This document shows positions 8,744 to 59,351 of a DNA stretch of 59,576 bases, in pieces. The DNA comes from a virus. Under the pieces are notes generated by a model. That model did no database searches. It was given only the letters and a program-made list of their open reading frames with translations, and was not told where the DNA came from. The DNA lies in the IMG/VR virus record IMGVR_UViG_3300027852_000007, one strand, 5' to 3'. Position numbers and translations under genes: made by a program. How positions within the stretch are numbered: position 1 is the stretch's first letter; the number at the start of each line of letters is the position of its first letter.

Positions 8744-8764
8744 TCGACTAATACGTGTTTTTTT

Positions 8765-8808
8765 AATACAAGTATTAGTCAATAGAAGTATTGACCTATA
8801 CAAGTATT
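8765..8808. promoter_or_regulatory. Cluster of three AATAC-WW-GTATT-type sites (one perfect, two 11/12)
   Basis: AATACAAGTATT at 8765-8776, AATAGAAGTATT at 8781-8792 and TATACAAGTATT at 8797-8808. The same 12-mer occurs at 37810, 40701 and 57181. Confidence 0.6.
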
Positions 8809-33234: not shown

Positions 33235-33510
33235 GTAGATAAGGAGCGACTGCTCAACATGGAGCGTACCATTGGTCACGGCTGCACGCTGACTGTTTCA
33301 CCAGCGGAAATACCGGGGCTGAATTTGACGGTATTGGTCAAAGATGCTGACACTGGGGAGCGGCACCATTGGAGCCGCACAATCGACGCTACACTGTGGT
33401 TTGAGTATAGGGTACCTTCGGCTATTTTCGATCAATTTGTTGCAGAGGCAAAAGCCCGGTTTGATGCGGTTTTTGGACAGGCAAGGACGCCAAAGAGGAG
33501 GTTAGTGTGA
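33232..33510 (+). CDS. hypothetical protein
   Basis: 92 aa. Start is TTG 33232 or ATG 33259. The stop overlaps the next gene. Confidence 0.5.
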   Translation: MVDKERLLNMERTIGHGCTLTVSPAEIPGLNLTVLVKDADTGERHHWSRTIDATLWFEYRVPSAIFDQFVAEAKARFDAVFGQARTPKRRLV

Positions 33511-36500
33511 GCACACTGGCGACATGCATTAAGCGCGCAGGCAAGGCTTTAAACCCCGCTGATGCGGAGGAAGTACGAACGCTGCGAGCTAACTATATCG
33601 AAGACGGTATGGACGGGCAGGCGGCTTCACAGGCAGCGATAGACGATGTGCTGTCGATGCTCAGTGATGAGCGTGAGGTGCTGGCTAAGCAGGTGGTTAA
33701 GCAGGGTGGGCGTATGCCGGATCAGTACCGGGTGTACCCTGCGCTGCCCACACAGGGCGACAAGGCTAAGGCGGAGGTGTCTCGCTTACTGTTCTCAAAG
33801 CCGACACCTGAGCAGGACGAGGTGTTGAAGAGTATGCCGCTGTCGGGTCTGGCGAAGGCGATCCGTGCTGACGATGTGGTGGAGGAGGTCAGGCACAAGT
33901 CGAAGCGGATGATCCACACTGTGACCACGGATGCGATGTATCGCAAGCATTTCGATAAGGTCGCTGCTATGGTGCCGACCCGCTTTCTCAAGGACTTTGC
34001 CCGCGACGAGATGGTTGCACCGATGGATCGGCTGAGCAATCTGTTCGTCGAGGTGGATGCGATGGCGAACAGTATCCGCGAGACTTTCGCTGAGCGCATG
34101 GAAAAGGTGGTGGCCTTTGTCGGTAAGCACGATGAAGCGCGAGCGACACAGGATTTGATACATGACAGCACACTGGCGGGGGTTGACCCTTCGGTCGGAT
34201 ACAAGCCTGTCACTTTTGTCGGTAAAACAACGAAGCATGTCAACGTTACCGTGCCTATCAGCGTGGCGCGTGCCCGCAAAGCCCTGAAAGAAGCCATAGC
34301 CTTCAACGTCCGCAAGCAGCGGCGCACGGGCCGGCAGGGTGGCAACGTGGAGGCGATGGCGGAAGGTGCTGAGCTGCGTGATGAGCTGGCAGCACTTGAG
34401 GCAAAGGTGAAGCAGGAGAAGGCCCGCAGCGAGGCGAAGGATGAGCTGTCGCAACGCTGGCAGAGCCTGTCACCGGAGGCTCAGGAGATTTACACCACCG
34501 TAAGGGATATGTACAAAGATGTGCGCGCTATTGAGGATAAGGCCTTCGAGCAGCGCATGGATGATCTGGCGGCGGGTAAGAACCCGGCGGAGGTGAAGGC
34601 GATAGACAGTGTGCGCATGGCCTACCGAAACCAGCAGCTTGATGAGCCTTACTTTCGTTTGTACCGCACCGGGGATTTCTGGGTCGCGGCTTATGCGAAT
34701 GAGGAGCGCAAGCAGGTGCTGGGTTACTGGCGGTTTAGCTCACTTGCGGATTACGATGCCAAGCTGGACGAGTTGGAGGCGGCGGGTGTTGTCACGTCGT
34801 CGGGTAAGCGTCAGGATGATGCGACACCACAGGTGATTGACCCGACCTTCGCCGCTGAGGTGGTGGATAAAATACGCAAAATGGGTGGCGGTGCGGCTAA
34901 GCAACTGGCGGATCAGGTTTGGCAGCAGCACCTGGAGCGACTGCCCGATTTATCCTTGCGTAAAACACAGATGCATCGTCGCAAGCGAGCGGGGTTCGAG
35001 CAGGATATTACCATGGGGCTGGCGCACACCGTGTATCACGGTGCCAGTCAAATCGCCAAGCTGTCGTTCAGCGGTGCGATGGACAGGGGTCTGAACGAGT
35101 TACAGGTGGCCGCTAAAGAGGGTAGCAAAACCCGCAAAGGGGCGGAGGTGGCACCTGTGCTACACGAGGAGATGGTTAAGCGTGTCGATATGTTCCGCAC
35201 TCATACGACCAGCACTCTGGCGAACAAGGCCACGCAGTTGGGCTTCTTCATGTACCTGGGCCTAACGCCAGCGGCGGCCATAGTTAACATGTCACAGACG
35301 GCGATCCTCGGTTTACCGATTATGGCGGCTAAATTCGGCTGGGCGAAGTCGATGCGGGCGCTACTGCGGGCGAGTGCTCAGGCATTTCGTCCGGCAGGTA
35401 TTAAAGATCAGCTCACAGGGGATGAAAAACTGGCTTTTGAGGCCTTCCATGCGCGGGGCTTGATGGAGAAAACCGGCGCGCACTCGATGGCAGGCGTGGC
35501 GACGGAAGGAGCGGAGTACACGGGTGCCCAGTCACGCATCATGCAGGTGGTGTCCTACCCTTTCCACCGGGCGGAGGTGTGGAACCGCGAGGCGACGGCG
35601 ATGGCCGCTTATCGTCTTGCACGGACAAAAGTTGACCATGATTCAGCTATGAAGATGGCCTCGGATTTAACCTGGGATGCTCACTTCGACTACGGTACGG
35701 CGAACCGCCCCCGTATTATGCAGCGGGACTTCCCCAAGGTGGTTTTCCTCTTCAAACAATACAGCCTCAACATGAGCTACCGGCTGATGCGCGATGCCAA
35801 CGACGCGATGCGGGGGCTTTCTCAACAGGATCGTAAGGAAGCCAGGACAAGGCTGGCCGGTGTGCTGGGCATGACGGGCATTTTTGCCGGGGCAGCGGGT
35901 ATGCCACTGTACTCGATGATCAGCGCTATGGCGGGTATTCTGCTGGGCGATGAGGATGAACCCTTCGACATGGACACGGAGCTGCGTGTCGCTCTCTCAC
36001 GGCTGCTAGGAGCGACGGGATCACAGGTGGTGATGGATGGCCCTACTAACGTGCTAACAGGGCTGGACGTGGGCTCACGGGTGAGTTTGAACAACCTGTG
36101 GCTGCGCGACCCGACCTATGCACTGGAAGGTAAAGACCTGTGGCACCACTACGCATCGGAGGCCATGGGGCCAGTCTTTAAGCTGGGCGATTCTACTTTC
36201 GAGGGGCTTTCCCGTATCAGCCAGGGTACCACGGAGCGCGGGGTGGAAATGCTTATGCCTAAAGCCGGCCGTGATGCGATGAAGGCACTACGCTTTTTGA
36301 ACGAGGGTGTGTTGAACCTTCAGGGGGAGGATATTCTACCCCGTGAGGATGTGTCGATGTGGAATGCGCTGTCGCAGGGTATCGGTTTTACACCCGCTAA
36401 ACTGGCTTTGCAGTACAAGCAGAATACGGCGATTAAAGGCGCGGAAGTGCAGATTAACCAACGCAGGCAGTTGCTGCTCAACCGTCGAGCGCTGGCAACG

Positions 36501-36704
36501 ATGGCGAAGGATGGTGCAGAGATAAAGACGATTGATAAGGCCATCATGCGTTATAACAAAGCCCACCCGCAGTATGCGATCACCCGCGCCACCTTGAAAC
36601 AATCCTTAAAGCGGCGCGCTAAGCTGGCGCAGGAGAGCCGGGGTGGGGTTAATCTGAACAAGCGGCTGGCTTACCTTTACGATGAGTTGCAGTTTTTGGA
36701 TTGA
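33507..36704 (+). CDS. very large virion-associated hypothetical protein (last gene of the + strand block)
   Basis: 1065 aa with a helical, charged N-terminal half and several hydrophobic segments in the C-terminal half (LGFFMYLGLTPAAAIVNMSQTAILGLPIMAA, GVLGMTGIFAGAAGMPLYSMISAMAGILLG). Function not recognised. Confidence 0.6.
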   Translation: MSTLATCIKRAGKALNPADAEEVRTLRANYIEDGMDGQAASQAAIDDVLSMLSDEREVLAKQVVKQGGRMPDQYRVYPALPTQGDKAKAEVSRLLFSKPTPEQDEVLKSMPLSGLAKAIRADDVVEEVRHKSKRMIHTVTTDAMYRKHFDKVAAMVPTRFLKDFARDEMVAPMDRLSNLFVEVDAMANSIRETFAERMEKVVAFVGKHDEARATQDLIHDSTLAGVDPSVGYKPVTFVGKTTKHVNVTVPISVARARKALKEAIAFNVRKQRRTGRQGGNVEAMAEGAELRDELAALEAKVKQEKARSEAKDELSQRWQSLSPEAQEIYTTVRDMYKDVRAIEDKAFEQRMDDLAAGKNPAEVKAIDSVRMAYRNQQLDEPYFRLYRTGDFWVAAYANEERKQVLGYWRFSSLADYDAKLDELEAAGVVTSSGKRQDDATPQVIDPTFAAEVVDKIRKMGGGAAKQLADQVWQQHLERLPDLSLRKTQMHRRKRAGFEQDITMGLAHTVYHGASQIAKLSFSGAMDRGLNELQVAAKEGSKTRKGAEVAPVLHEEMVKRVDMFRTHTTSTLANKATQLGFFMYLGLTPAAAIVNMSQTAILGLPIMAAKFGWAKSMRALLRASAQAFRPAGIKDQLTGDEKLAFEAFHARGLMEKTGAHSMAGVATEGAEYTGAQSRIMQVVSYPFHRAEVWNREATAMAAYRLARTKVDHDSAMKMASDLTWDAHFDYGTANRPRIMQRDFPKVVFLFKQYSLNMSYRLMRDANDAMRGLSQQDRKEARTRLAGVLGMTGIFAGAAGMPLYSMISAMAGILLGDEDEPFDMDTELRVALSRLLGATGSQVVMDGPTNVLTGLDVGSRVSLNNLWLRDPTYALEGKDLWHHYASEAMGPVFKLGDSTFEGLSRISQGTTERGVEMLMPKAGRDAMKALRFLNEGVLNLQGEDILPREDVSMWNALSQGIGFTPAKLALQYKQNTAIKGAEVQINQRRQLLLNRRALATMAKDGAEIKTIDKAIMRYNKAHPQYAITRATLKQSLKRRAKLAQESRGGVNLNKRLAYLYDELQFLD

Positions 36705-36736: not shown

Positions 36737-37414
36737 TCAGCCCTCAGCGAGCGGCAAAAGCTCCTGCTGCAAATGCGCATCACCGCTCCTTCTTTCGATT
36801 TCTACGTGCGACTCACGGGGAGCCTTTCTTTCATCCTCGCGCTCAATGACAGCCGAAAATGCAATACGATTGCCATTGTACATAACGTCCGGATTTATGT
36901 AGTACGCCCCTTTGCGTATGGTTTTCGCAATTATTTTTGCCTTTTCCAATTCTGACAAGCCTCGAAAAAATGTTGATATATGCATTACTGGCTGCGGATC
37001 TAAATGACCGTGACCTTCCAGAAAGTTTGACAGGGTGAAGCTGTCAAGAATAACAATGTCTTTAGCTTGAGCGTGTTCCTTTATTGCCCACATTACAACG
37101 CGCAACGCTTTGTTTCCGGCCTTTGTCAAATCAAAAGTGAACGCCATGTAGTCGGCAAATGTTTTGACAAACCTCTCCCTGTCAACCTTCTTGTAAGCGA
37201 CTACATGGGTTGATGTTATTTCCCCGGTTGTCTTGTTGATTAGTACGTTGTTCTCCTTGCCATATGTCGATATTTGTACTTGTTTTGACCCAACTGGGAT
37301 CACCATGTTTTGAATAAAAGGATTCTTGTCATATCGTATTATTTTAGTCACATTTATCCTTACACGTATTGTTATAAGATGGTGAATCTTAACGGTATGC
37401 ATTGCTAAATACAA
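36737..37414 (-). CDS. RepL-like winged-helix protein, copy A (replication initiator or regulator candidate)
   Basis: FVKTFADYMAFTFDLTKAGNKALRVVMWAIKEH...ISTFFRGLSELEKAKIIAKTIRKGAYYINPDVMYNGNRI fits the RepL pattern (wHTH followed by y.iNP...kG). AT-rich gene. True start uncertain (ATG 37402 or 37306). Confidence 0.5.
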   Translation of the reverse strand: MYLAMHTVKIHHLITIRVRINVTKIIRYDKNPFIQNMVIPVGSKQVQISTYGKENNVLINKTTGEITSTHVVAYKKVDRERFVKTFADYMAFTFDLTKAGNKALRVVMWAIKEHAQAKDIVILDSFTLSNFLEGHGHLDPQPVMHISTFFRGLSELEKAKIIAKTIRKGAYYINPDVMYNGNRIAFSAVIEREDERKAPRESHVEIERRSGDAHLQQELLPLAEG

Positions 37415-37809: not shown

Positions 37810-37821
37810 AATACTTGTATT
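37810..37821. promoter_or_regulatory. AATACTTGTATT palindromic site, preceded by TTGGCA
   Basis: Perfect 12-mer of the AATAC-WW-GTATT family, 70 nt upstream of the AP2-like gene. Confidence 0.55.
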
Positions 37822-37891: not shown

Positions 37892-38338
37892 TTGGCGACT
37901 GAAAATATTAGCAAGGGTATTACCAAATTTACCGATACCTGTTATCGCGCCGTTATATTTCTTCTCGGTAAGGAAGTGACGCGCTACTTCAAGACGCTGG
38001 AAGAGGCGAACGAGTGGTATGCCGAACATGCGCCGATTCGAGAAGATTTGCTCTCACCGGGTGGGAATGTCACGATGAAACAGACCCGCGCCAGAACTCA
38101 GGATTTACCTATCGGCACGTATGAGAGCTTTGAACAGTGTCGCCGCAAGTCCGTAGATTCCTACGTGGTGCCGATTATTCGCACGACGATATGCCTGAAA
38201 GACGGAGGGCTAAAGCATTTCCAACGCTCGTTTGACACGGGTGGGCCGAGGGATAGAACCCGTGAGGAAGCCGTTAAGCAGATAGCGGAAGCACGAGCAA
38301 AGTTTGTAGAAGAGAACCCGCACTTGGTGCGATACTAA
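37892..38338 (+). CDS. AP2-like DNA-binding protein (paralog of 50655-51092)
   Basis: CYRAVIFLLGKEVTRYFKTLEEANEWY is AP2-like (strand-strand-strand-helix). The C-terminal ...RTREEAVKQIAEARAKFVEENPHLV parallels ...RTLEEALAIVMEKRAAFVRANPDLF in the paralog. TTG start, uncertain. Confidence 0.5.
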   Translation: MATENISKGITKFTDTCYRAVIFLLGKEVTRYFKTLEEANEWYAEHAPIREDLLSPGGNVTMKQTRARTQDLPIGTYESFEQCRRKSVDSYVVPIIRTTICLKDGGLKHFQRSFDTGGPRDRTREEAVKQIAEARAKFVEENPHLVRY

Positions 38339-40665: not shown

Positions 40666-40700
40666 AGTGCTTCTCCGTTGTTATATTACTTTTATTGATC

Positions 40701-40712
40701 AATACTTGTATT
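40701..40712. promoter_or_regulatory. AATACTTGTATT palindromic site, preceded by TTGATC, in the divergent region upstream of the parA-like gene
   Basis: Perfect 12-mer of the same family as 8765, 37810 and 57181. Confidence 0.55.
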
Positions 40713-40821
40713 TAAAGCATGTGTTGTGTGTAAAATATATGTTGTATTTGTGATGGGTAGTATTGGTTCACATACTTTTTGCTGCTATTGTTCTCCCACG
40801 CTTCAAAAGGGGGAGCCGATT

Positions 40822-41463
40822 TTGATCATTTCATTACTGGGGCAAAAGGGCGGTACAGGTAAGTCAGCCCTTGCCCGAACACTGGCGGTTGAGTTTATCC
40901 GCAACGGCTGGAAGGCGCATATCGCTGATATGGATCAGGGGCAACAGACAGCCTTGCGCTGGGGCGAGCGACGACGCGCTAATGGTATCAGCCCAGCGGT
41001 AACGGTGACAGCTTACCAGCGTGTTAGCAAGGCTTTGAGCGGTGCAGGGGCGAGCGATGTGATGATCATGGACGGTAAGGGTTTCGTCGATGCCCACGCG
41101 CTGCGTATCGCCCTCGCCAGTACGTTGGTGGTTATCCCGGTGGGTATGTCTGTTGACGATCTGGAGGCTAATTTAACACTGGCGACAGGGCTGGTAGCAC
41201 GGGGTGTGTCGCGCCAGGCCATGGTGTTTGTGGTATGCCGGGTGGCGGAGCGCGGTGAGAAGGAGGCGATGCACACACGGGCGAGCATTAAGGACTGGGG
41301 TTTTAACCCGGTGCAGGGCTGGCTACCCTTCAAGACAGCTTACTCAAAGGCGCTGGATAAGGGTCTGGCGCTAACGGAAACACGCTTTCAAACACTGAAC
41401 ACCAGGGCTGACCATGTGGTTGAGCAATTGGTGGATCAGGCGATTAAGAACGATCAAAAATAG
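40822..41463 (+). CDS. parA: ParA/ParF-type partition ATPase (small type Ib)
   Basis: Deviant Walker A LLGQKGGTGKSALA, then ADMDQGQQTAL, MIMDGKG and VVIPVGMSVDD, which follows the ParF layout. AAGGGGGAG lies 7 nt upstream of TTG 40822. The track's earlier ATG at 40726 adds an implausible Cys-rich leader. Confidence 0.8.
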   Translation: MIISLLGQKGGTGKSALARTLAVEFIRNGWKAHIADMDQGQQTALRWGERRRANGISPAVTVTAYQRVSKALSGAGASDVMIMDGKGFVDAHALRIALASTLVVIPVGMSVDDLEANLTLATGLVARGVSRQAMVFVVCRVAERGEKEAMHTRASIKDWGFNPVQGWLPFKTAYSKALDKGLALTETRFQTLNTRADHVVEQLVDQAIKNDQK

Positions 41464-41473
41464 GAGTCAACAA

Positions 41474-41737
41474 GTGGACACAATTTGGAAATTTGAATTA
41501 AAGGTGGCAGACGAACAACTGCTGGAAATGCCCGTTGGATCACTTCTACTGGATGTGCAGCTACAAAATAACTCACTCCAACTGTGGGCCAGAGTTGATC
41601 CTGAGCAGCCGAAGATAAAGCGCAAGATAATTATCCACGGGACTGGCCACCCTGTGAAAGAAACAACAGGCAACCATCTTGGTACTTTTCAGTCGCCAGA
41701 TGGTGCTTTGGTATTTCACGTATTCGAAGGAGTTTAA
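41474..41737 (+). CDS. small conserved beta-rich protein between parA-like and the RHH gene
   Basis: AGGAG lies upstream of GTG 41474. Protein VDTIWKFELKV...LWARVDP...IIIHGTGHPV...FHVFEGV. No function recognised. Confidence 0.55.
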   Translation: MDTIWKFELKVADEQLLEMPVGSLLLDVQLQNNSLQLWARVDPEQPKIKRKIIIHGTGHPVKETTGNHLGTFQSPDGALVFHVFEGV

Positions 41738-41741
41738 CAGT

Positions 41742-42020
41742 ATGGCAAGATTTCGGGCACCACCGCGACAAAGCACTGATGGTATGTACGAGTGGGAGGA
41801 GAAAGAGGAAAGGGAGGAGAGGAAGGAGAGGAAGGAGAGGAAGGAGAGGAAGGAGAGGAAGGAGAGCATCGAAGAGCTGCTGGGCGAGCCGGAGGAAATG
41901 AAGCTGGTTCAGATCCGAATACCGGCGTCGGAGCGAGATCGTTTCAAGATGATTGCCGCCAGTGAGAACCTGACTATGGGTCGCTTGCTGTTGAGGATGA
42001 TTCAGGAGTACGAGGACTAA
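41742..42020 (+). CDS. ribbon-helix-helix protein (ParG-like centromere-binding candidate) with an ERK-repeat linker
   Basis: GAAGGAG lies upstream of ATG 41742. C-terminal KLVQIRIPASERDRFKMIAASENLTMGRLLLRMIQEY follows the RHH pattern. Sits downstream of the ParF-like ATPase. Confidence 0.55.
   Translation: MARFRAPPRQSTDGMYEWEEKEEREERKERKERKERKERKESIEELLGEPEEMKLVQIRIPASERDRFKMIAASENLTMGRLLLRMIQEYED
41814..41867 (+). repeat. 9-bp x6 coding tandem repeat (aaggagagg) within a roughly 75-nt all-purine tract
   Basis: Read directly. Encodes (ERK)n in the RHH protein. Confidence 0.9.
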
Positions 42021-42022
42021 CG

Positions 42023-42340
42023 TTGAAATGGAACTACAGGGTAATTGAGTTTGTTGAGGCTACCGGCGATCCGTTCCGACAGGTGCATGAGGTGTATTAC
42101 AATGAGGAAGGTGAGCCAGAAAGTTATGGCGAAAGCCCCGCCGCAGTTGTGTGGGGTGTTGAGGAAGAGGGTGCGGGGCACGATGTTTTGCAGATGATGG
42201 CACAGGCGCTGGATAAGCCTGTGCTTGTGGAGGCTGATTTTTCAGTAAATACCACTATCGAGAACATCGCGCTCGAGGATGGCGATCTCTTCGGGGATGC
42301 TGTCGAAGGGGATGCCGGGGCCGGTGACGAGGGTCAGTGA
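42023..42340 (+). CDS. hypothetical acidic protein
   Basis: MKWNYRVIEFVEATGDPFRQVHEVYYNEEGEPESYG... TTG start. The 3' end overlaps the convergent ORF 42242-42982 by about 100 nt, so one of the two ends is probably wrong. Confidence 0.45.
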   Translation: MKWNYRVIEFVEATGDPFRQVHEVYYNEEGEPESYGESPAAVVWGVEEEGAGHDVLQMMAQALDKPVLVEADFSVNTTIENIALEDGDLFGDAVEGDAGAGDEGQ

Positions 42341-42982
42341 GCCTTCTAGCAGGCGTTCTTCCGTCATAACTTCTACTTCGGCGTCGGGGTAGCGTGTCTG
42401 GATGAGTTCGGCCATGGTGATGGCGTAATCTTCTATTTCGTCATCGTCTTTATCACTGACCGGGGTGGTGTCGAGGGTGTGGCGGATGAAGTAGTTGCCA
42501 CCGTCGGTGAAGGTGGAAGCGCGGGGTGTGCCTTTGGCTTTGTTGCGGTTGCTTTTGGCGATGTCGCACTTTCGTTTCTGGCCTCGCCTTCTTAGAGTTT
42601 GCAGATCCAGGCTCCCTCTGTTTCGGATGTCGCTAGGACGGTCGTGACTGCGCGGCATGGTCAGGGCGCTAACCAGGTATCTGGGGTAGTAACGCAGGGC
42701 GAAGGGGATGGCGGCGACGAGTATGAGCATACAGATTGAGGTTTTAGGCAGGCGAGCACCGGAGCGCCACTCAGTGATTTTGCTGCGCTGATAACGGGTG
42801 CCAGCGACTTTGTTAAGGCGTTCCAGTGCCTGGGTGTAGTTGTAGCCTTCCATTGCTTCAGCACTCAACCACATGTTGATGAGGTGTACGTCGCCGTAGT
42901 CCTGGATGATTCCCGAGCGGGGCAGTTTGTCGGGGAGGTTGATAGTTTTGACGCCACCCTTGTTTGAGTTCGGGCCTGACAA
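42242..42982 (-). CDS. HTH-containing protein with a central hydrophobic segment (regulator candidate)
   Basis: YTQALERLNKVAGTRYQRSKITEWRSGARLP resembles an XRE-type HTH. A hydrophobic segment ICMLILVAAIPFAL follows, then a basic and then an acidic region. Confidence 0.45.
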   Translation of the reverse strand: MSGPNSNKGGVKTINLPDKLPRSGIIQDYGDVHLINMWLSAEAMEGYNYTQALERLNKVAGTRYQRSKITEWRSGARLPKTSICMLILVAAIPFALRYYPRYLVSALTMPRSHDRPSDIRNRGSLDLQTLRRRGQKRKCDIAKSNRNKAKGTPRASTFTDGGNYFIRHTLDTTPVSDKDDDEIEDYAITMAELIQTRYPDAEVEVMTEERLLEGSLTLVTGPGIPFDSIPEEIAILERDVLDSGIY

Positions 42983-42986: not shown

Positions 42987-43268
42987 TCAGCCCTCTAGTA
43001 TTTTGTCAATAAACAGTTCACCACCCTCGATGCTGTCCTCGTAGGTAACGAAAAAGCCCATTCTCTGTAGCTTGTTGATCCAGTAGTATTGTAGGGGACG
43101 GGGGGTTTCACCGGGACGCTTGACTTCGATGAAGCCTGCACGTCCACCGGGAAAGAGTACGAGCCTGTCGGGGATGCCCGCAGGGTTGGTGAGTTTGAGG
43201 TAGAGGCCGTCCAGCTGCTTTACGCGGTGGCGCAGTGCCTGGTCGATGTATCGCTCACGCTTGCGCAT
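42987..43268 (-). CDS. VRR-NUC domain nuclease
   Basis: GIPDRLVLFPGGRAGFIEVKRPGETPRPLQYYWINKLQRMGFFV carries the PD...E-x-K core and the conserved Q of VRR-NUC. Confidence 0.85.
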   Translation of the reverse strand: MRKRERYIDQALRHRVKQLDGLYLKLTNPAGIPDRLVLFPGGRAGFIEVKRPGETPRPLQYYWINKLQRMGFFVTYEDSIEGGELFIDKILEG

Positions 43269-45205
43269 TCGAAAATCTCCGTGATTTCACGCACTCGCTG
43301 GGCGTAGTAGCGTGTGTTGAGGGTGGCTCTGTCGATAACGGTGCTGTCGTTGGACACGGTGACGGCCTGGTGTTTGTTGATGCCGATTTCCCGCTCTTTG
43401 TCGGGCGCTTTGGCCAGCGGTGGCATGATTTTAATGAGGCTGACACCATCGGTGCTGACGTAGTACCGCGTAAGGTTCTGTAGGGACTGTTCGTCGTCTT
43501 CGGTGAGTACGTCGCGACAAACCAGACGGCTATCCCGTGGCACTTTGGCGCGCAGGAAGAAGTCGTAATCATCGGGGTGGTGTTCGATGAAGCTGTCAAT
43601 GTCTTCCCCCCTTACCAGACAGGCTTCTGCTGCTCTGGCAACAACCCGCGCTGAGAAGTTTTTGTGCCAGTCGTCGTTGGTTTCATAGTCGTATTCGTAG
43701 ACGCCTTTGTGAGTGATGGAGCCATCGGTCTTGACCGCCAGGTAGTTATTAACGTCGCGCATCCACACGCTGGCGTAGGTGTCGGTCTCAAGGACAAGCC
43801 GGGTGTGTTTCTCCCATTCTGCGCAGACCTTACACACTGTGTCGAGCTGTACTTTGGGCACGCTGTAGGCGATGCCATCGGTATTGACGTTGATCAAGCG
43901 CAGGCCGGGTACTGACATTAGCGCTTCGGCCAGCATACAGAGTAATAACTGCCCGTTGATGGTGATGGAGAGGGTGTACTGGGGATCGTAAAACGGGCTG
44001 TAAACACTGTTCGAATCACCATAGACGCCGTTTAAGGCGAGCTTGAGCATGGCGTTTTCTGCGCTACCTTTGGCGAAGGTTGAGCGCATTTTGTAAACAT
44101 CGGCATAAACCTCACAGAAGCGCTTACCCAGGTGTTCGGGGTGCAGGTTGTTGACGATGGCGAGGTTGGGGTAGTAGGACTTAACGTCGCGTTGTTCGAT
44201 AACGGTTTCATCGTCGGCATGGAAGGCGGTATTGGGTGTGGCCCCATGGAGGCCTCCCACACCGAAGTCGAATTGAAAGCCGTCGATGATGACGTTGAGG
44301 TTTTTAATCTTGCCTTTGACTTTATCGAGGTTAGCGAACGCGGCAACGTCACCCAGGGCGTCTTCTGGTATGCCTGTGAAGGTACCTTTTGTGTTGCTGA
44401 CCACTTGGCGGCGCAACCACTGTTCGATGGCCCTAAACGCAGGGTGACGGAGTTTAACGCTGTCGAGTATGAGGCTGTCGAGTACGATGTGCCCCCGGTG
44501 GGAGGTGGTAATTTTACCGGGGATACCGAGCCGGCGGGACATGTAGTCTTTACCAATTTTGGTGTCGTTGTGGTTGGTGAAGTCGATGCCTTCGGTGCTG
44601 CTCAGTGCGCGCCTGAACGCCACCTTATCACTGCTGATGTGGAAGAAGCGGCGGGTCTGTTCGACATCGTGAGCGTTGTAGCGGATCAGGGTGTCGATCT
44701 CTGAGGGCGTGAGGCGCTTACCCGGCGGGAAGGGCAGGTCTTTAATGGACGTGGCGCGCATGTTGAACTCCAGCTCTTTGAGGCTGGTACTGCGCGCCAC
44801 GTTGTCGAAGTGGTGGATGGCGTAGAGGTCGAGCTGTGTGACAAACTGTTGGTTAGGGTAGATGCGGTGCTTAAAGCGCTCGTTCCACGGGGTGCTGATG
44901 ATAGCCTGACACTTGAGCCAGGCGCGCCCCACGATGGTTTTAGCGGGTGCATCGGAGGGACAGGCCTGTATCAGGGTGTGCAGGATGGGGTAGTCAAAGC
45001 CCAGGTTGTTGAAGCCCACCATGGTAAAACGGTGGCTTGTTTTATCCAGCAGCAGCTTACGCAGGCGGGGCCAGTCGTTGCGACGTTGACTGACCTCTAC
45101 CACTGCGCGCTTGTTGTTCTGTTCGTTAATCAGCACGCAGGTGAAGACGTTGGGGTAGGTCTCAATGTCGTAGGTCAGGTAATGGGGCGTAAGCGGGCTG
45201 GACAT
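43220..45205 (-). CDS. family-B DNA polymerase with 3'-5' exonuclease domain
   Basis: Exo I YDIETYPN, Exo II GFNNLGFDYPIL, Exo III YNAHDV. Polymerase motif A DVKSYYPNL, motif B KLALNGVYG, motif C NVNTDGI. Confidence 0.8.
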   Translation of the reverse strand: MSSPLTPHYLTYDIETYPNVFTCVLINEQNNKRAVVEVSQRRNDWPRLRKLLLDKTSHRFTMVGFNNLGFDYPILHTLIQACPSDAPAKTIVGRAWLKCQAIISTPWNERFKHRIYPNQQFVTQLDLYAIHHFDNVARSTSLKELEFNMRATSIKDLPFPPGKRLTPSEIDTLIRYNAHDVEQTRRFFHISSDKVAFRRALSSTEGIDFTNHNDTKIGKDYMSRRLGIPGKITTSHRGHIVLDSLILDSVKLRHPAFRAIEQWLRRQVVSNTKGTFTGIPEDALGDVAAFANLDKVKGKIKNLNVIIDGFQFDFGVGGLHGATPNTAFHADDETVIEQRDVKSYYPNLAIVNNLHPEHLGKRFCEVYADVYKMRSTFAKGSAENAMLKLALNGVYGDSNSVYSPFYDPQYTLSITINGQLLLCMLAEALMSVPGLRLINVNTDGIAYSVPKVQLDTVCKVCAEWEKHTRLVLETDTYASVWMRDVNNYLAVKTDGSITHKGVYEYDYETNDDWHKNFSARVVARAAEACLVRGEDIDSFIEHHPDDYDFFLRAKVPRDSRLVCRDVLTEDDEQSLQNLTRYYVSTDGVSLIKIMPPLAKAPDKEREIGINKHQAVTVSNDSTVIDRATLNTRYYAQRVREITEIFECASVSDTSTRHCATA

Positions 45206-45789: not shown

Positions 45790-45963
45790 CGTAACATTCC
45801 TTGTTTTGATGGTTTTAATTTTACTTTTTTACAGTAGTGATGGTGGTTTTACCCTATACCCATAGGTGTTTAAATACGATTGCTACTGACACAAAAGAGG
45901 CTATCAGCAGGATGATTAAAATAAAATCAAAATTTTTAATTTTTAAATCCTCAATTTTTTTAT

Positions 45964-46008
45964 AATTAAAAGTTTATTAATTAAAAGTTTATTAATTAAA
46001 AGTTTACG
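45964..46008. repeat. 15-bp x3 AT-rich tandem repeat (aattaaaagtttatt)
   Basis: Read directly, in the AT-rich gap between the DUF2800 stop and the SSB start. The last unit overlaps the DUF2800 stop. Confidence 0.85.
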
Positions 46009-47263: not shown

Positions 47264-47815
47264 TTAGATGTCGAGTTCTCGCGTCTTGTAGTTAATCCAT
47301 TCGATGATGGTGGGGTAGTCCCTTGCCTTCAGGTCTTCGGTGGTTTCAGCGCGGTACTCGGTGGTGATCAGGTTTTTCAGCTCCATGCGCATGTCGGGGT
47401 TATCGCGAACGAAGGTGCGCACGGCGTCTTTAAAGGTTTGTTTGCTGATACGCGGGGTGGCGGGCTTTGGCCCCTGTTTACCTTTGGCGGGAGGTCGGGT
47501 TTTGGGTCGTACTGGCTCTGGTTCAGGCTCTGGTTCAGGCTCTGGTTCAGGCTCTGGTTCAGGCTCTGGTTCAGGCTCAGGCTCAGGCTCAGGTTTTGGC
47601 TTGGGTTTTGGCTTGGGTTTTGGCTTGGGTTTTGGCTTGGGTTCTGGTGCCGGTACGATGTCTTCGGCAAGGGTTCTGACCTTTCTGAGTTCGATGTCCC
47701 ACCCCTTAGCAATCAGGCTAAGATCAAGAAAGGTGTCGTTGGGAATGTTGGCGGCGTTGAGTTCGTCGATAAAATTGAGGGCGAGCTGGTATATATCAGT
47801 CATTTTTTCATCCAT
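47264..47815 (-). CDS. hypothetical protein with a central (PK)n(PE)n low-complexity linker
   Basis: 183 aa containing [48 protein letters not shown]. The flanking parts look globular. Confidence 0.6.
47514..47645. repeat. Composite coding microsatellite: ggctctggttca x5, ggctca x3, ggttttggcttg x4
   Basis: Read directly. Open in several frames on both strands, which produces multiple shadow ORFs in the track. Confidence 0.9.
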
Positions 47816-53413: not shown

Positions 53414-54391
53414 TTAGCTCCAGGTGGTGGTGTAGTTGTAGGCGTTGGCCAATACTTTCAGCTCTGCCAGATAAGGCGTGGCTCTACCGGGGTGATCGCG
53501 CACGATGGTTTCTAGTTCTTGTGGTGTCAGCTCTGCCTTGATGCTGATACCGAAACTGTCGCAAAACGCGGCGATGCCAGGCTTGCAAAACCCTAGCTTG
53601 CGACACTCTGCCCAGTCGATGAGCTGGCCAGTCAGCTTGAGATGCTGTTTACGCATCTTGTTATGCAGCTCATGCAGCAGTGAGTGCTTATCTGTGCTGT
53701 GGTACGTGGTACCCATGGGGGCCGTTATCACGTAGTCAATATGTGTGCCTAGCAGGGTGCGGGAGTAAATAGAGTAGCCCCGGCGCGTGCTGATCAGCTT
53801 AGCGTCGTAGGCGCTCTTGAGTCGTATGCTCAGAGGTAATTTCGACTTAACAGGCTTGATGATGCCAGCTTCGAGCGCCGCTGCGTACACGTAGTCACCA
53901 CGCCAGCCCGGTATCTGCTGATTAATGATTTTCGGTTTGCCGCGAAACATGCGGGCAAAGCGTACATAGCGTGTGGTTGTGATTTTCGGCCCGTATCTAT
54001 TGTGCCAGCCTTTTGAATAGACGCCCCACTGTTTTTCTTCATGCTCCACAGTGCAGTAGAACCACGGGCCTAGCCGTTTGAATGATGTTGAGTGGCTGGG
54101 CAGGCCTAACATGCTGCGGGGGCTGCCATCGCGCTGATCGTTTTCACTATGCGCAGCTTCGAGGCAACGCATCATGTAGTGATATTTGCGCTCCCACGCT
54201 GCCGGATAGTAGCGGAAAGGGGAGTTTTGACTGTTAATGTTGCCGATGACTTGCCGGTGGTAGGACTGCTTGCGACGCTGTAGCGCCTCCTGTAGTTCGC
54301 GCACGGCGACAACACCAGGGCGACCACTTGCGTCAAATTCGAGACGTTCTTTAATTGAGGTTAGTGCTTGGTATTCTGTTAGTGCTGACAT
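53414..54391 (-). CDS. hypothetical early protein
   Basis: 325 aa, preceded by the conserved GGAGCACTAGATATG initiation motif. No family recognised. Confidence 0.6.
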   Translation of the reverse strand: MSALTEYQALTSIKERLEFDASGRPGVVAVRELQEALQRRKQSYHRQVIGNINSQNSPFRYYPAAWERKYHYMMRCLEAAHSENDQRDGSPRSMLGLPSHSTSFKRLGPWFYCTVEHEEKQWGVYSKGWHNRYGPKITTTRYVRFARMFRGKPKIINQQIPGWRGDYVYAAALEAGIIKPVKSKLPLSIRLKSAYDAKLISTRRGYSIYSRTLLGTHIDYVITAPMGTTYHSTDKHSLLHELHNKMRKQHLKLTGQLIDWAECRKLGFCKPGIAAFCDSFGISIKAELTPQELETIVRDHPGRATPYLAELKVLANAYNYTTTWS

Positions 54392-54814: not shown

Positions 54815-54847
54815 ATCTAGTGCTCCAGGTGGTGGTGTTGGTGGCGA

Positions 54848-55261: not shown

Positions 55262-55305
55262 GCCTAGTGCTCCAGGGTTGCAACGTTTGAGTGGTCATTA
55301 TACAC

Positions 55306-55340
55306 CAATACTATCAATACTATCAATACTATCAATACTT
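55306..55340. repeat. 9-bp x4 tandem repeat (caatactat), each unit carrying an AATAC half-site
   Basis: Read directly. Immediately upstream (in the minus sense) of the gene starting at 55261. Confidence 0.85.
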
Positions 55341-55383: not shown

Positions 55384-55855
55384 TTGTAACTGAAAATGGC
55401 AATTTGTAACTAAACTCCACCAAGTTCAGTTACACTTAAGTTGTTGATTTATAAGGATAAAATAAATTATGTAACTGTTGTAACTGTCTTGTAACTGACT
55501 TTGGTTACACGCCAAGTCATTGATTTATAAGGATAAATTTGTAAATTTGGTTAGGTTTTTTACTGTAACTGACTTTATTCCACGGTGTACAGATTTATAT
55601 AATATATATAATAAGCACGTAATATATTATGTGTATAGCTGGCTGGTGGAAGAAAGTCAGTTACAACAGTTACAGCGCTATTTTTTGCTGATTTTCTTAA
55701 TAAAATCAATGACTTACGGTGTAACTAAACTTGGTTACACGTCAGTTACAACAGTTACAAAAAATAAAATATGTATATAAATCAGAGGGTTAAGTGTAAC
55801 TGAACTCAGTTACACTCAGTTACACTCAGTTACACTCAGTTACACTCAGTTACAC
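55384..55855. other. Iteron-dense, AT-rich origin-of-replication-like region
   Basis: About 20 copies of a GTTAC(A)/(T)GTAAC core in both orientations, including tcagttacac x5 in tandem (55806-55855), cagttacaacagttaca x2 and tgtaactg x3. There is also a roughly 50-bp AT-only stretch (55591-55640) and an 18-bp direct repeat ttgatttataaggataaa (55444-55461 and 55520-55537). Confidence 0.6.
55806..55855. repeat. 10-bp x5 perfect tandem iterons (tcagttacac)
   Basis: Read directly. Confidence 0.95.
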
Positions 55856-57134: not shown

Positions 57135-57180
57135 GCCATAACCATCAGTTATACCAAGAAACCGTATAGCGGTATTGATA

Positions 57181-57192
57181 AATACAAGTATT
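57181..57192. promoter_or_regulatory. AATACAAGTATT palindromic site, preceded by TTGATA, upstream of the TerS-like gene
   Basis: Perfect 12-mer. TTGATA, an 18-nt spacer and TACGAT would place the site inside a promoter spacer. Confidence 0.55.
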
Positions 57193-57274
57193 GACCAATA
57201 CGATGATTGGTGGCAGCCTTCGACGTAATCTGAAAAAAATTTGAAAAAAATTTCTGTCTGAGGAAACCCCTTCT

Positions 57275-58739: not shown

Positions 58740-59351
58740 ATGGAAAATAAAAATAAAAATAAAACGCATGAACTTGAACAGCAGGTCAATCATCTTAGGG
58801 AATTGCTGAATGATGAGAGAGAACAAAACAGAGCAACCAAAAACAAAGTAAACGGCGGATATTACATGACCAGTCGAAAGGCGGAAAAAAGCTTGAGGAT
58901 CTTACAGCAGGAAAGCCCTGTTGGAAGTCTTGTTTTCAGTGTGCTTCGAGAACATATGAAGATCGGTACCAACGCGGTGACAATATCAAGTCCTACACTG
59001 GCAAAAATATTGAACAAATCACTACGCACCATTGCTCGGGCCATCAAACACTTGCTCGACAATTGTTATGTTCAAATCATCAAAACCGGCAACACAAACA
59101 CTTACGTGATCAACGAACAAATTTCTTTTGCGGGTACAGCAGGACAGAGGAAGGCAGTTTTTTCTGCAACCATTGTTGCCCATGAAGATGAGCAGGAGGA
59201 GGGGTGGGAAAAGGTAAAAACACTAAAGACCACAACTTCACCGATTGACCGCAGAGCATCAGATAATCGTGCACAAGCGAGGAACATGAATCGAAAGCAC
59301 TCTGCTGATGACACAAAGCATGACACCCTGTGGCACGCTACCACGCCATGA
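58740..59351 (+). CDS. RepL-like winged-helix protein, copy B (replication initiator or regulator candidate)
   Basis: ...VGSLVFSVLREHMKIGTNAVTISSPTLAKILNKSLRTIARAIKHLLDNCYVQIIKTGNTNTYVINEQISFAG fits the RepL pattern. AT-rich gene. Confidence 0.5.
   Translation: MENKNKNKTHELEQQVNHLRELLNDEREQNRATKNKVNGGYYMTSRKAEKSLRILQQESPVGSLVFSVLREHMKIGTNAVTISSPTLAKILNKSLRTIARAIKHLLDNCYVQIIKTGNTNTYVINEQISFAGTAGQRKAVFSATIVAHEDEQEEGWEKVKTLKTTTSPIDRRASDNRAQARNMNRKHSADDTKHDTLWHATTP

What the first reader, a model, noticed from the sequence alone, without database searches (positions are those of the whole stretch)
40666..42020. ParF-like ATPase and RHH (ParG-like) partition cassette inside the replication module of a podovirus-like phage with no integrase
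A + strand cassette interrupts the minus-strand DUF2800-SSB-PolB-VRR-NUC...SNF2 module. It holds a small deviant-Walker-A ParA/ParF-type ATPase (40822-41463), an 87-aa unknown protein (41474-41737) and an RHH protein (41742-42020). I also see two RepL-like genes, an iteron-rich origin, and no recognisable tyrosine or serine recombinase. Together these point to maintenance as an extrachromosomal plasmid prophage or carrier state. Type Ib ParF/ParG systems are established plasmid segregation machines. I know the phage-plasmid lifestyle best from P1, N15 and SSU5-type myo- and siphoviruses, so a T7/P22-like virion module with this equipment would be unusual. The centromere is not obvious. Candidates are the region upstream of parA (40666-40821, with an AATACTTGTATT site and TGTTGT repeats) and the repeat arrays at 56.75-57.13 kb.
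Basis: partly seen in the sequence, partly recalled or inferred. Interest (0 to 1): 0.75.

Follow-up and report, generated by a model that had tools for sequence, protein, structure and literature searches.

The report
Plasmid partition cassette in a podophage
A complete, circularly assembled 59-kb podovirus-like phage genome with no detectable integrase carries a plasmid-type ParF-like ATPase and ParG-like ribbon-helix-helix pair, so it probably persists in its host as a low-copy plasmid; this lifestyle is well known but rare for this virion type.

Summary
ORF 40822-41463 is a 213-aa ParA with a deviant Walker A motif. Its best matches are ParF of pTP228 and NCBIfam ParA_partition. ORF 41742-42020 is a ribbon-helix-helix protein homologous to the small ORFs that directly follow the closest ParA homologues on conjugative plasmids and in Erwinia phage LS-2018a.

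The 87-aa gene between them (DUF7352) is a common phage accessory gene. It is absent from a 96%-identical relative, where parA and the RHH gene abut, so it is an insertion and not part of the machine. Both partition genes are under purifying selection (pN/pS 0.07 and 0.14).

More distant relatives of the replication module lack the cassette. No integrase or transposase was found in any ORF. A RepL-like gene and a 16-copy iteron cluster are present. The virion module is SU10/kuravirus-like, not T7/P22-like.

One apparent phage-chromosome junction in a related contig lies on a 21-nt chance microhomology inside two coding genes. It is not a site-specific integration.

New centromere candidates are a 9-bp tandem array beside the iterons and a recurring AATACWWGTATT palindrome.

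Plasmid-prophage maintenance is likely but unproven. This is a new member of a known kind, of moderate interest.

The parts
40666..40821 (+). AT-rich (35% GC) region upstream of parA. It holds the palindrome AATACTTGTATT (40701-40712) and two inverted CAATACT copies (40700-40706 on +, 40759-40765 on -). Candidate promoter/operator and possibly a centromere.
   Evidence: It is conserved in L010 from window position 40690 onward, and L010 has four CAATAC/GTATTG copies there. No consensus sigma-70 promoter was called.
40822..41463 (+). ParF-like (type Ib) partition ATPase, 213 aa. Deviant Walker A KGGTGKS, and no N-terminal DNA-binding domain.
   Evidence: PDB ParF 4dzz E 1.1e-9, aligned over residues 2-186. 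NCBIfam NF041546 ParA_partition 3.4e-25, profile positions 1-201 of 203. phrog_164. Pfam CbiA/MipZ. pN/pS 0.07 against L010.
41474..41737 (+). DUF7352 / phrog_3848 gene, 87 aa. An inserted phage accessory gene, not part of the conserved partition pair.
   Evidence: Pfam 1.6e-26 and PHROG 2.4e-23. Absent from L010 with a clean gene-boundary indel. GC is 45.5% against 54-57% for its neighbours. Homologues occur in 64 diverse phage records; no accession among the 15 best DUF7352 rows recurs in the ParA hit list.
41742..42020 (+). ParG-like centromere-binding protein candidate, 92 aa. It has a basic N-terminal tail (MARFRAPPRQ), an E/K-rich helical linker encoded by 9-bp repeats, and a C-terminal ribbon-helix-helix.
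   Evidence: Homologous to the ORFs directly downstream of plasmid ParAs (E 2e-8 to 1e-5; alignment) and of the LS-2018a ParA. The profile's top PDB hit is ParG 1p94, E 0.17. AF2 gives pLDDT 75 with RHH topology. Foldseek top hits are almost all RHH proteins. pN/pS 0.14.
42023..42340 (+). Fourth ORF of the operon (105 aa, phrog_21321, function unknown). It sits in a variable cargo slot that holds a BrnT/BrnA toxin-antitoxin pair in relative L010.
55306..55339 (.). Perfect 9-bp tandem array CAATACTAT x3.8 (reverse complement ATAGTATTG), immediately beside the iteron cluster. Best centromere (parS/parH-like) candidate.
   Evidence: The same core (TAGTATTG / CAATACT) occurs upstream of parA. The parA-upstream region of plasmid homologue L003 has a 9-bp-periodic TATATTGTT/GTATTG array.
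55385..55854 (.). Iteron cluster with 16 copies of TGTAACTG in both orientations, including 5.4 tandem 10-bp units. Candidate plasmid-type replication origin.
   Evidence: 18 copies in the window against 1.6 expected.
36737..37414 (-). RepL-like replication initiator.
   Evidence: Pfam PF05732 RepL, E 7.9e-8. The same family is recorded for the ENA copy of this phage.
58740..59351 (+). Second winged-helix initiator/loader-like protein (HTH_36; phrog_186 'DnaD-like helicase loader').
   Evidence: Similarity to the RepL-like gene is weak (E 0.039).
37810..37821 (.). Second exact copy of AATACTTGTATT, in the intergenic region upstream of + strand ORF 37892-38338.
8750..8808 (.). Array of AATACAAGTATT-like palindromes at 16-bp spacing (one exact copy and three with one mismatch), in an intergenic gap of the head module.
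57169..57204 (.). Cluster GGTATTGA-AATACAAGTATTGA-CCAATAC upstream of the TerS-like gene (57275-58222).

Best explanation
The cassette is a plasmid-derived type Ib partition system that this phage lineage acquired. It consists of a ParF-like ATPase and a ParG-like RHH centromere-binding protein.

Inferred mechanism, by analogy with ParF/ParG of TP228 and delta/omega of pSM19035:
- RHH dimers coat short repeats containing GTATTG. Candidate sites are the region upstream of parA, the four-unit 9-bp array at 55306-55339 beside the iteron origin, and possibly the other AATACWWGTATT sites.
- The basic N-terminal tail of the RHH protein stimulates ATP hydrolysis by nucleoid-bound ParA dimers.
- The resulting ParA gradient moves sister genome copies apart before cell division.
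- The same RHH binding upstream of parA would autoregulate the operon.

Together with the RepL-like initiator, the iterons and the lack of any integrase, the most likely lifestyle is a circular, low-copy extrachromosomal state: a plasmid prophage or a stable carrier state of a podovirus-like phage.

Shown here: gene identities, the conserved ParA-RHH pairing, purifying selection, lineage-specific insertion, absence of a recognisable integrase, and repeat enrichment.
Inferred only: DNA binding specificity, ATPase stimulation, and actual plasmid maintenance.
For: - ParA groups with partition ATPases. ParF is the best solved relative (E 1.1e-9) while MipZ scores 1.6e-3. NF041546 ParA_partition scores 3.4e-25 over its full length while MinD, BcsQ and Mrp-type families score 1e-4 or worse.
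- The closest homologues (50-59% identity) sit on conjugative plasmids carrying Tra/Trb, Rep3, KfrA and KorA, each followed by one small ORF.
- 1465 PLSDB plasmids carry homologues, against 37 phage records.
- The window's RHH protein is homologous to those small downstream ORFs. The same pairing is seen in L010, in LS-2018a and in several GTDB loci where a weak RHH-like match (tblastn E 5e-4 to 0.3) lies just downstream of the ParA match.
- The RHH fold is supported.
- pN/pS is 0.07 for ParA and 0.14 for RHH, against 0.14 for the flanking SNF2 gene.
- The cassette's GC content matches the genome.
- In L010 a BrnTA addiction module sits next to the pair.
- The cassette is absent from more distant relatives of the replication module.
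- No integrase was found.
- RepL and iterons are present.
- The genome assembles as a host-free unit of about 59.4 kb in two assemblies: a 127-bp terminal overlap in the window and a 59,414-bp ENA contig.
- Motif enrichment: CAATACT 18 copies against 5.2 expected, the palindrome 7 against 1.0 expected, and a perfect 9-bp array.
Against: - No repressor, antirepressor or other lysogeny switch was recognised.
- The phage encodes its own replisome (polymerase, primase-helicase, SSB), as many virulent phages do.
- The nearest cultured phages with this portal are virulent Vibrio podoviruses (PMC13230959). No PLSDB plasmid carries this portal.
- Some phage records with ParA homologues may be lytic.
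- The ParA score is below NCBIfam's equivalog cutoff (88.8 against 180 bits).
- The match of the RHH profile to ParG is not significant (E 0.17).
- The centromere is not established. GTATTG as a hexamer is only mildly enriched (39 copies against 27.7), and the palindromes may instead be sites for another regulator.
- No multimer-resolution recombinase or E. coli-type dif site was found.
- Circular assembly does not distinguish a plasmid from terminally redundant virion DNA.
Confidence: 0.6

Rival explanations
1. The phage is essentially virulent, or only transiently pseudolysogenic. The plasmid-derived ParA-RHH pair then serves another purpose, such as positioning replicating phage DNA during infection, stabilising a short-lived carrier state, or interfering with the partition of resident plasmids.
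For: - No lysogeny regulator was recognised.
- The phage has a self-sufficient replisome.
- The nearest cultured relatives by portal are virulent podoviruses (PMC13230959).
- ParA homologues occur in phage records of 46-120 kb whose lifestyle is not documented here.
Against: - A complete cognate ATPase/CBP pair under strong purifying selection, a RepL-type initiator with iterons and, in L010, an adjacent toxin-antitoxin pair together form the typical plasmid-maintenance set.
- The same head module occurs in a bona fide integrated prophage of Halomonas, so this virion type is not restricted to virulent phages.
Confidence: 0.27
2. The phage is an integrating temperate phage that uses an unrecognised recombinase. 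Contig L010, in which 96%-identical phage DNA is joined to the plsY-tsaD genes of an Anaerolineae chromosome, would be a prophage-host junction.
For: - L010 joins phage sequence (up to window position 42343) in frame to plsY.
- The host part is 99.95% identical to an intact chromosomal contig.
- Phage and Anaerolineae contigs come from ENA assemblies with neighbouring accession numbers (ERZ27237536 and ERZ27237542), which may belong to one study.
- A de Bruijn assembler would not normally join sequences through exact runs of only 8-12 nt, so the junction may reflect a real molecule.
Against: - The crossover lies on a 21-nt, 20/21 microhomology whose BLAST E-value is 0.087, which is chance level.
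- It truncates both plsY (the last ~50 of 204 aa are replaced) and a phage ORF, so there is no att-like reconstitution.
- No integrase is present anywhere in the genome.
- GC content is 63% on the host side and 51% on the phage side.
- Relatives of the ParA and of the portal are proteobacterial.
- The intact locus exists in the best-assembled contig, L014. Two further contigs match it but end inside plsY, 63-71 nt beyond the junction point.
- At most this is an illegitimate recombinant or a chimeric molecule, not a lifestyle.
Confidence: 0.06
3. The cassette is a recently captured, functionless passenger from a plasmid.
For: - It is lineage-specific and lies in a hypervariable accessory slot on the strand opposite to its neighbours.
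- A foreign gene (DUF7352) has been inserted between the two partition genes.
Against: - pN/pS is 0.07 and 0.14 across about 11-22% synonymous divergence.
- GC content is ameliorated to that of the phage.
- All ATPase motifs are intact.
- Each gene keeps its own Shine-Dalgarno sequence.
- The pair is retained in three independent contigs.
Confidence: 0.05

Closest known systems
ParF/ParG of Salmonella plasmid TP228 (type Ib partition; PDB 4dzz, 5u1g, 1p94)
   Same: - The ATPase is small (213 aa against 206 aa), has the deviant Walker A motif and has no DNA-binding N-domain. ParF is the best solved relative.
- The partner is a small protein with a disordered basic N-tail and a C-terminal RHH. 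ParG is the top PDB hit of the RHH profile and rank 4 by Foldseek.
   Different: - ATPase similarity is distant (E 1e-9), and the RHH match to ParG is not significant (E 0.17).
- The RHH protein has an E/K-rich helical linker of variable length.
- An unrelated gene is inserted between the two genes.
- No ACTC-type parH array is present. The candidate sites have a GTATTG/CAATACT core, and the best array lies 14 kb away beside the origin.
delta/omega system of pSM19035 (own knowledge)
   Same: In that system an RHH protein binds short 7-bp repeats at several promoters and acts both as global regulator and as centromere-binding partner of a ParA-type ATPase. Here the same short palindrome or repeat recurs at five intergenic sites.
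   Different: No sequence relationship was tested. Binding of the RHH protein to these sites is purely inferred.
Classical phage-plasmids (P1, N15, SSU5) and parABS-carrying mycobacteriophages that lack an integrase (own knowledge; review PMC11652158, survey PMC7969092)
   Same: A full virion module is combined with a plasmid-type initiator, a partition system and no integrase.
   Different: - The virion module is SU10-like podoviral, not myo- or siphoviral.
- Partition is type Ib (RHH partner), not type Ia ParAB/SopAB.
- The phage also encodes a complete polymerase-primase replisome.
- No immunity repressor was identified.
Podoviral phage-plasmids already reported: F116-community elements of Klebsiella (PMC7969092) and the prototypic crAssphage (PMC10983915)
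   Same: Podovirus-type virion with proposed plasmid-like persistence.
   Different: The window's portal found no PLSDB plasmid and, among phage records, only Vibrio and Escherichia phages; no direct comparison with F116-community elements or crAssphage was run. Evidence for this phage is genomic only.
Erwinia phage LS-2018a (CP013974), deposited as a separate replicon of the E. tracheiphila MDcuke complete genome
   Same: It carries the same ParA subfamily (41.5% identity), followed directly by a homologous 75-aa RHH ORF. The record is a 1.88x concatemer of a 31.8-kb unit, as expected for a circular episome.
   Different: No other gene is shared with the window.

Membership tests
Type Ib (ParF-like) partition ParA | Small ATPase (~200-230 aa) without the N-terminal HTH domain of type Ia ParA | tested here: met
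   213 aa. It aligns end to end with ParF (residues 2-186 against 3-184) and with NF041546 (positions 1-201 of 203).
Type Ib (ParF-like) partition ParA | Deviant Walker A motif KGGxxK[ST] and conserved Walker A'/B aspartates | tested here: met
   KGGTGKS at residues 9-15. D36/D38 and D84-G85 are invariant across 12 homologues.
Type Ib (ParF-like) partition ParA | Closer to partition ParAs than to MinD, MipZ, CobQ or Mrp | tested here: met
   ParF 1.1e-9 against MipZ 1.6e-3. ParA_partition 3.4e-25 against the next family at 7.6e-5.
Type Ib (ParF-like) partition ParA | Scores above NCBIfam NF041546 equivalog cutoff | tested here: not met
   88.8 bits against a cutoff of 180. It is a distant subfamily, not an equivalog.
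Type Ib (ParF-like) partition ParA | Cognate small centromere-binding protein gene immediately downstream | tested here: met
   The RHH gene lies downstream. It is directly adjacent in L010, and separated by the inserted DUF7352 gene in the window.
Type Ib (ParF-like) partition ParA | Repeat-type centromere bound by the partner protein | tested here: inconclusive
   Candidate arrays were found. Enrichment of the bare hexamer is weak, and binding has not been tested.
Type Ib (ParF-like) partition ParA | ATP-dependent nucleoid binding and segregation activity | not testable with these tools
   Requires biochemistry and plasmid-stability assays.
ParG-like RHH centromere-binding protein | C-terminal ribbon-helix-helix fold | tested here: met
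   AF2 predicts an extended segment followed by two helices (62-75, 79-90) with pLDDT 80-85 there. Foldseek top hits are StnY, ORF56, ParG, Arc, AmrZ and CopG, with TM 0.5-0.76 normalised to the target but E>=0.3. Pfam RHH_10 scores 2.7e-3.
ParG-like RHH centromere-binding protein | Significant sequence homology to ParG | tested here: inconclusive
   ParG is the top PDB hit of the profile, but E is 0.17.
ParG-like RHH centromere-binding protein | Flexible basic N-terminal tail that activates the ATPase | tested here: inconclusive
   Residues 1-14 are predicted unstructured and contain R3, R5 and R9. Homologues begin with MAK../K-rich tails. The function has not been tested.
Phage-plasmid | Complete virion and packaging module | tested here: met
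   TerS-like, TerL, SU10 portal, major head protein, SU10 adaptor and large internal/polyvalent proteins are present. Lysis genes were not searched for specifically.
Phage-plasmid | Plasmid-type replication initiator and origin | tested here: met
   RepL PF05732 at 7.9e-8 and a 16-copy iteron cluster.
Phage-plasmid | No chromosomal integration machinery | tested here: met
   No integrase, resolvase or transposase among all ORFs of at least 50 aa. AF2 of the integrase-sized unknown ORF 53414-54391 was uninformative (pLDDT 42).
Phage-plasmid | Lysogeny control (repressor/immunity) | tested here: not met
   Nothing was recognised by Pfam, PHROGs or NCBIfam. Many early ORFs are unknown, so absence is not shown.
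Phage-plasmid | Observed extrachromosomal maintenance in host cells | not testable with these tools
   Only host-free circular or full-length contigs are available. These are equally compatible with virion DNA.
Integrative temperate phage | Integrase plus attP, with prophage-host junctions in relatives | tested here: not met
   No integrase was found. The single junction (L010) lies on a chance 21-nt microhomology inside two ORFs.

The most novel reading that the evidence does not exclude
An SU10/kuravirus-like podovirus of a marine proteobacterium lysogenises as a circular low-copy plasmid. It uses a RepL/iteron replicon for the plasmid state and its own polymerase-primase replisome for lytic growth. 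It is segregated by a plasmid-derived type Ib ParF/ParG-like pair, whose RHH protein doubles as a genome-wide regulator through AATACWWGTATT and CAATACT sites at five intergenic locations, in the manner of omega of pSM19035. That would add a new virion type and a new partition type to the known phage-plasmids.
Probability: 0.45. Interest if true: 0.55.

Novelty: new member of a known kind. Interest (0 to 1): 0.4.

Why it matters
Phage-plasmids move genes between phages and plasmids. Catalogued examples are overwhelmingly sipho- and myoviruses, and few are podoviruses (PMC7969092).

This genome shows a recent, clean capture of a conjugative-plasmid-type ParF/ParG module by a podovirus lineage whose other members lack it. 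It therefore illustrates how a phage might switch persistence strategy.

It also offers a compact, testable system:
- two proteins;
- a handful of candidate centromere sites;
- natural variants with and without the inserted DUF7352 gene;
- natural variants with and without an adjacent toxin-antitoxin pair.

The concept itself is established, so the value is incremental.

Tried and rejected
- Megablast of 38.7-45.3 kb against GenBank phages gave no match.
- Whole-genome relatedness to Erwinia phage LS-2018a was checked. Only ParA is shared.
- SNF2-based searches for relatives found nothing in IMG/VR and only L010 in JGI metagenomes.
- The portal found no match in PLSDB.
None had other window genes, so it gave no host or lifestyle information.
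- PADLOC found no defence-system match for any cassette protein or neighbour.
- No tRNA genes and no Rfam families were found.
A single-sequence model was used instead.
- AF2 of the integrase-sized unknown ORF 53414-54391 gave pLDDT 42 and is unusable. PDB sequence searches of that ORF, of ORF 42242-42982 and of DUF7352 gave nothing.
- No E. coli-type dif site was found.
The latter are unrelated 54-bp and 47-bp repeats upstream of the TerS-like gene, with no link to the motif upstream of parA apart from an adjacent palindrome at 57181.
- L010 was considered as an integration junction and rejected as site-specific integration.
Full report
THE WINDOW AS A WHOLE. The 59,576-bp window begins and ends with the same 127 bases, which is the signature of a circularly closed k=127 assembly. 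GC content is 53.6%. An independent ENA assembly (ERZ27237542) holds the same ParA on a 59,414-bp contig with the same gene order, and there are no host flanks. The genome is therefore complete.

VIRION MODULE.
- Genes 1.3-36.7 kb on the + strand form the virion module. It contains TerL, an SU10-type portal (PF23899), a major head protein, an SU10 adaptor (PF24175) and large polyvalent proteins with InPase and LPD39 domains.
- The nearest cultured phages by portal (36% identity) are 50-57-kb Vibrio phages. One lineage of these is described as a virulent podovirus of 52,228 bp (PMC13230959).
- 'Podovirus-like' is therefore supported, but the module is SU10/kuravirus-like and not T7/P22-like.
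- Metagenomic portal relatives mostly sit on 50-66-kb contigs. A few lie in contigs of 190-490 kb. One is an integrated Halomonas prophage with the same head genes but a lambda-O-type replication module. This virion type is therefore used by temperate phages too.

THE OBSERVATION.
A fourth ORF (42023-42340, phrog_21321) completes a tight + strand operon.
- The operon interrupts a minus-strand replication module: DUF2800, Enc34-type SSB, a DNA polymerase (phrog_1252, no Pfam hit), VRR-NUC, an unknown 246-aa ORF, then, beyond the cassette, two small ORFs and SNF2.
- Fifteen IMG/VR loci carry a polymerase 37-47% identical to this one. Where the neighbours are visible, PolB, VRR-NUC and SNF2 follow each other directly or within about 2 kb. 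None of these loci has a ParA, RHH or DUF7352 homologue.
- The cassette is therefore a lineage-specific insertion.

THE ATPASE.
- ORF 40822-41463 (213 aa) carries KGGTGKS and the Walker A'/B aspartates. These are invariant across 12 homologues.
- Its best solved relatives are ParF of TP228 (4dzz, E 1.1e-9, residues 2-186) and the TP228 ParA-ParB complex 5u1g. MipZ is a million-fold weaker.
- NCBIfam ParA_partition matches end to end (3.4e-25) but below the equivalog cutoff. MinD, BcsQ and Mrp families are marginal. PHROGs calls it a ParA-like partition protein.
- The refutation criterion 'groups with MinD or CobQ' is not met.
- The closest database homologues (50-59% identity) come from marine gammaproteobacterial metagenomes. 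The three long contigs inspected are conjugative plasmids with F-type or P-type T4SS genes, Rep3, KfrA and KorA.
- In PLSDB, 1465 plasmids (875 of them conjugative) carry homologues, against 37 GenBank phage records.

THE RHH PARTNER.
- On each of those plasmids, parA is followed directly by one small ORF of 66-100 aa. The window's 92-aa protein is homologous to all three (E 2e-8, 1e-7 and 1e-5), and the similarity is concentrated in the C-terminal ~45 residues.
- The same arrangement is found in Erwinia phage LS-2018a (75-aa ORF), in Aliivibrio phage H905 and in several GTDB loci.
- A profile of five of these proteins ranks ParG (1p94) first among 177,635 PDB sequences, followed by the RHH proteins MazE7 and Mnt. 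The E-value is only 0.17.
- A single-sequence AF2 model (pLDDT 75) shows a disordered tail (residues 1-14), a long E/K-rich helix (15-47), an extended segment and two helices.
- Foldseek returns almost only RHH proteins: StnY, ORF56, ParG at rank 4, Arc, AmrZ and CopG. Agreement is about 2 Å over 40 residues, but E-values are weak because the domain is small.
- I accept an RHH protein that is the conserved partner of this ParA subfamily. Membership of the ParG family proper is not demonstrated.

THE MIDDLE GENE.
- The 87-aa ORF is DUF7352 / phrog_3848.
- Contig L010 (JGI 3300027742) is 96% identical to the window over SNF2 and parA. There the RHH gene starts right after parA, and the difference is a clean gene-boundary indel that duplicates the AGGAG ribosome-binding site.
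- The gene's GC content is 45.5%, against 54-57% for its neighbours.
- Homologues occur in 64 diverse phage records, including Gordonia, Vibrio, Pseudomonas and Roseobacter phages. No accession among the 15 best DUF7352 rows recurs in the ParA hit list.
- It is an inserted accessory gene, not a third partition component.
- The slot after the RHH gene is also variable. It holds orf105 here and a BrnT/BrnA toxin-antitoxin pair in L010.
- The E/K linker of the RHH protein is encoded by 9-bp repeats and varies in length: 92, 86 and 81 aa in three contigs.

SELECTION. Between the window and L010, pN/pS is 0.07 for parA (18 synonymous and 4 non-synonymous changes), 0.14 for the RHH gene and 0.14 for SNF2. 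The pair is maintained by selection at least as strongly as a core replication gene. A dead-passenger explanation is unlikely.

INTEGRATION MACHINERY.
- Pfam scans of all 73 greedy ORFs of at least 50 aa found no integrase, resolvase, transposase or protelomerase at E<=0.01. These ORFs leave no gap longer than 330 bp.
- NCBIfam, PHROGs and PDB searches of the larger unknown ORFs also found nothing.
- AF2 of the integrase-sized ORF 53414-54391 was uninformative.
- No repressor was recognised either.

THE APPARENT JUNCTION IN L010.
- In L010, homology to the phage stops sharply at window position 42343. The contig then continues into the N-terminal ~150 residues of PlsY and a complete TsaD.
- That part is 63% GC, against 51% for the phage part.
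- It is 99.95% identical to a 25.7-kb contig, L014. There tsaD is followed by an intact 204-aa plsY and further chromosomal genes including DNA polymerase III alpha. Two named TsaD relatives at about 79-82% identity carry NCBI MAG labels beginning 'Ana', which I read as Anaerolineae.
- The crossover falls on a 21-nt stretch, identical at 20 of 21 positions, that encodes GSLT(I/L)VT in both plsY and the phage ORF 42242-42982. The BLAST E-value is 0.087, which is chance level.
- Both genes are truncated, nothing is reconstituted and no recombinase is present.
- This is either a chimeric molecule or assembly, or a one-off illegitimate recombinant. It is not evidence for a site-specific integrative lifestyle. 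I rate the integrative rival at about 0.06.

REPLICON FEATURES.
- ORF 36737-37414 hits Pfam RepL (7.9e-8).
- ORF 58740-59351 is a second winged-helix initiator/loader-like protein that is only weakly similar to the first.
- TGTAACTG occurs 18 times against 1.6 expected. Sixteen copies lie in 55385-55854 in both orientations, including 5.4 perfect tandem 10-bp units. This is a classical iteron origin.
- The genome thus has both an initiator-plus-iteron replicon and a full polymerase-primase replisome. This duality is comparable to that of P1 (own knowledge).

CENTROMERE CANDIDATES.
- The region upstream of parA (35% GC) is conserved in L010 from position 40690. It holds AATACTTGTATT and two inverted CAATACT copies. 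L010 has four CAATAC/GTATTG hexamers in 146 bp.
- AATACWWGTATT occurs exactly at 8765, 37810, 40701 and 57181, with three one-mismatch copies at 8750-8808. That is 7 sites against 1.0 expected, and all are intergenic.
- CAATACT occurs 18 times against 5.2 expected. Four of these form a perfect 9-bp tandem array at 55306-55339, 46 bp from the iteron cluster.
- The parA-upstream region of plasmid homologue L003 has a 9-bp-periodic TATATTGTT/GTATTG array. This suggests that the subfamily's RHH proteins read a TATTG-type core at 9-bp spacing.
- This is suggestive only. The bare hexamer is weakly enriched (39 against 27.7), and the palindromes could belong to another regulator.

VERDICT.
- The cassette is a genuine type Ib partition module, selectively maintained and derived from plasmids. 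It sits in a complete podovirus-like phage genome without detectable integration machinery.
- Maintenance as a low-copy circular episome is the best explanation (about 0.6) but is not shown. A mainly virulent or carrier-state phage that uses the pair differently remains a serious rival (about 0.27).
- Metagenomic phages with ParA, toxin-antitoxin genes and no integrase have been read as phage-plasmids since at least 2015 (PMC4490671). Phage-plasmids are numerous. Podoviral ones are few but known (PMC7969092, PMC10983915).
- This is a new member of a known kind, of moderate interest.

Noticed in passing
window 1-127 and 59450-59576: An exact 127-bp terminal direct repeat, the overlap left by a k=127 assembler. 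The window is a circularly closed complete genome of 59,449 unique bases. An ENA assembly holds the same phage as a 59,414-bp contig.
   Followed up: yes
L010 (JGI 3300027742 Ga0209121_10011577) 4527-6793, against window 42237-42343 and L014 11614-11634: Phage DNA is fused in frame to a truncated plsY and a complete tsaD of an apparent Anaerolineae chromosome. The join falls at a 20/21-nt microhomology. The intact locus exists in another sample. This is a chimeric or illegitimate junction, and two other contigs of that chromosome also end inside plsY 63-71 nt further on, which remains unexplained.
   Followed up: partly
L001+L002 (CP013974.1, Erwinia phage LS-2018a): The 59,759-bp GenBank record is a 1.88x head-to-tail concatemer of a 31.8-kb unit (positions 1-27907 equal 31812-59759 at 99.7% identity). 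It carries a ParA-RHH pair of the same subfamily next to a lysozyme gene, so it is probably a circular episomal prophage.
   Followed up: partly
window 41806-41866: A 9-bp tandem repeat (AGGAGAGGA x6.8) encodes the E/K-rich linker of the RHH protein. Linker length differs among three contigs (protein of 92, 86 or 81 aa).
   Followed up: partly
window 18956-19429: ORF with a Tad2-like (Thoeris anti-defence 2) domain (PF11195, 2e-18) inside the structural module. A 50%-identical copy lies next to the polymerase in IMG/VR locus L023.
   Followed up: no
window 20467-23757 and 33507-36704: Two proteins of more than 1000 aa, with an InPase domain (PF18823, 2e-52) and an LPD39 domain (PF18858, 2e-17). 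They resemble the large polyvalent, possibly ejected, proteins of phages and conjugative elements.
   Followed up: no
window 13692-14792 and 14837-16117: An RCC1-repeat beta-propeller protein (PF25390, 1e-52) followed by a DUF4214-containing protein, within the tail region. These are likely receptor-binding components.
   Followed up: no
window 54389-54403, 54594-54606, 54812-54826, 55259-55273: The 13-nt sequence TATCTAGTGCTCC occurs four times, three copies exact and one with two mismatches. At least at 54391 it reads GGAGCACTAGATATG on the minus strand and so includes the start of gene 53414-54391. Two further copies (54814, 55261) begin at the start coordinates of genes 54593-54814 and 54848-55261. 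The copy at 54594 lies at the stop end of gene 54593-54814, not at a gene start.
   Followed up: no
window 47514-47647: Two adjacent 12-bp tandem arrays (GGCTCTGGTTCA x6.8 and GGTTTTGGCTTG x4.7) lie between the DUF2800 gene and the primase gene, inside overlapping ORFs on both strands. The coding status is unclear.
   Followed up: no
window 45959-46006: A 15-bp AT-rich tandem repeat (TTTATTAATTAAAAG x3.3) in the gap between the SSB and DUF2800 genes. It may be a second origin or a promoter element.
   Followed up: no
window 56751-56872 and 56992-57129: A 54-bp x2.3 array (with an internal GACGGC/GCCGTC hairpin) and a 47-bp x2.9 array lie upstream of the TerS-like gene. They may be a pac or regulatory region and are unrelated to the motif upstream of parA.
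   Followed up: partly
window 43220-45205: The 661-aa DNA polymerase has no Pfam or NCBIfam hit at E<=0.01 but matches phrog_1252 at 4e-173. It belongs to a phage polymerase clade that general libraries capture poorly.
   Followed up: no
window 42242-42982 (minus strand): An unknown 246-aa ORF directly downstream of VRR-NUC. By eye, residues ~45-85 resemble an XRE-type helix-turn-helix (…YTQALERLNKVAGTRYQRSKITEWRSG…), but no library supports this. If real, it would be a repressor candidate.
   Followed up: partly
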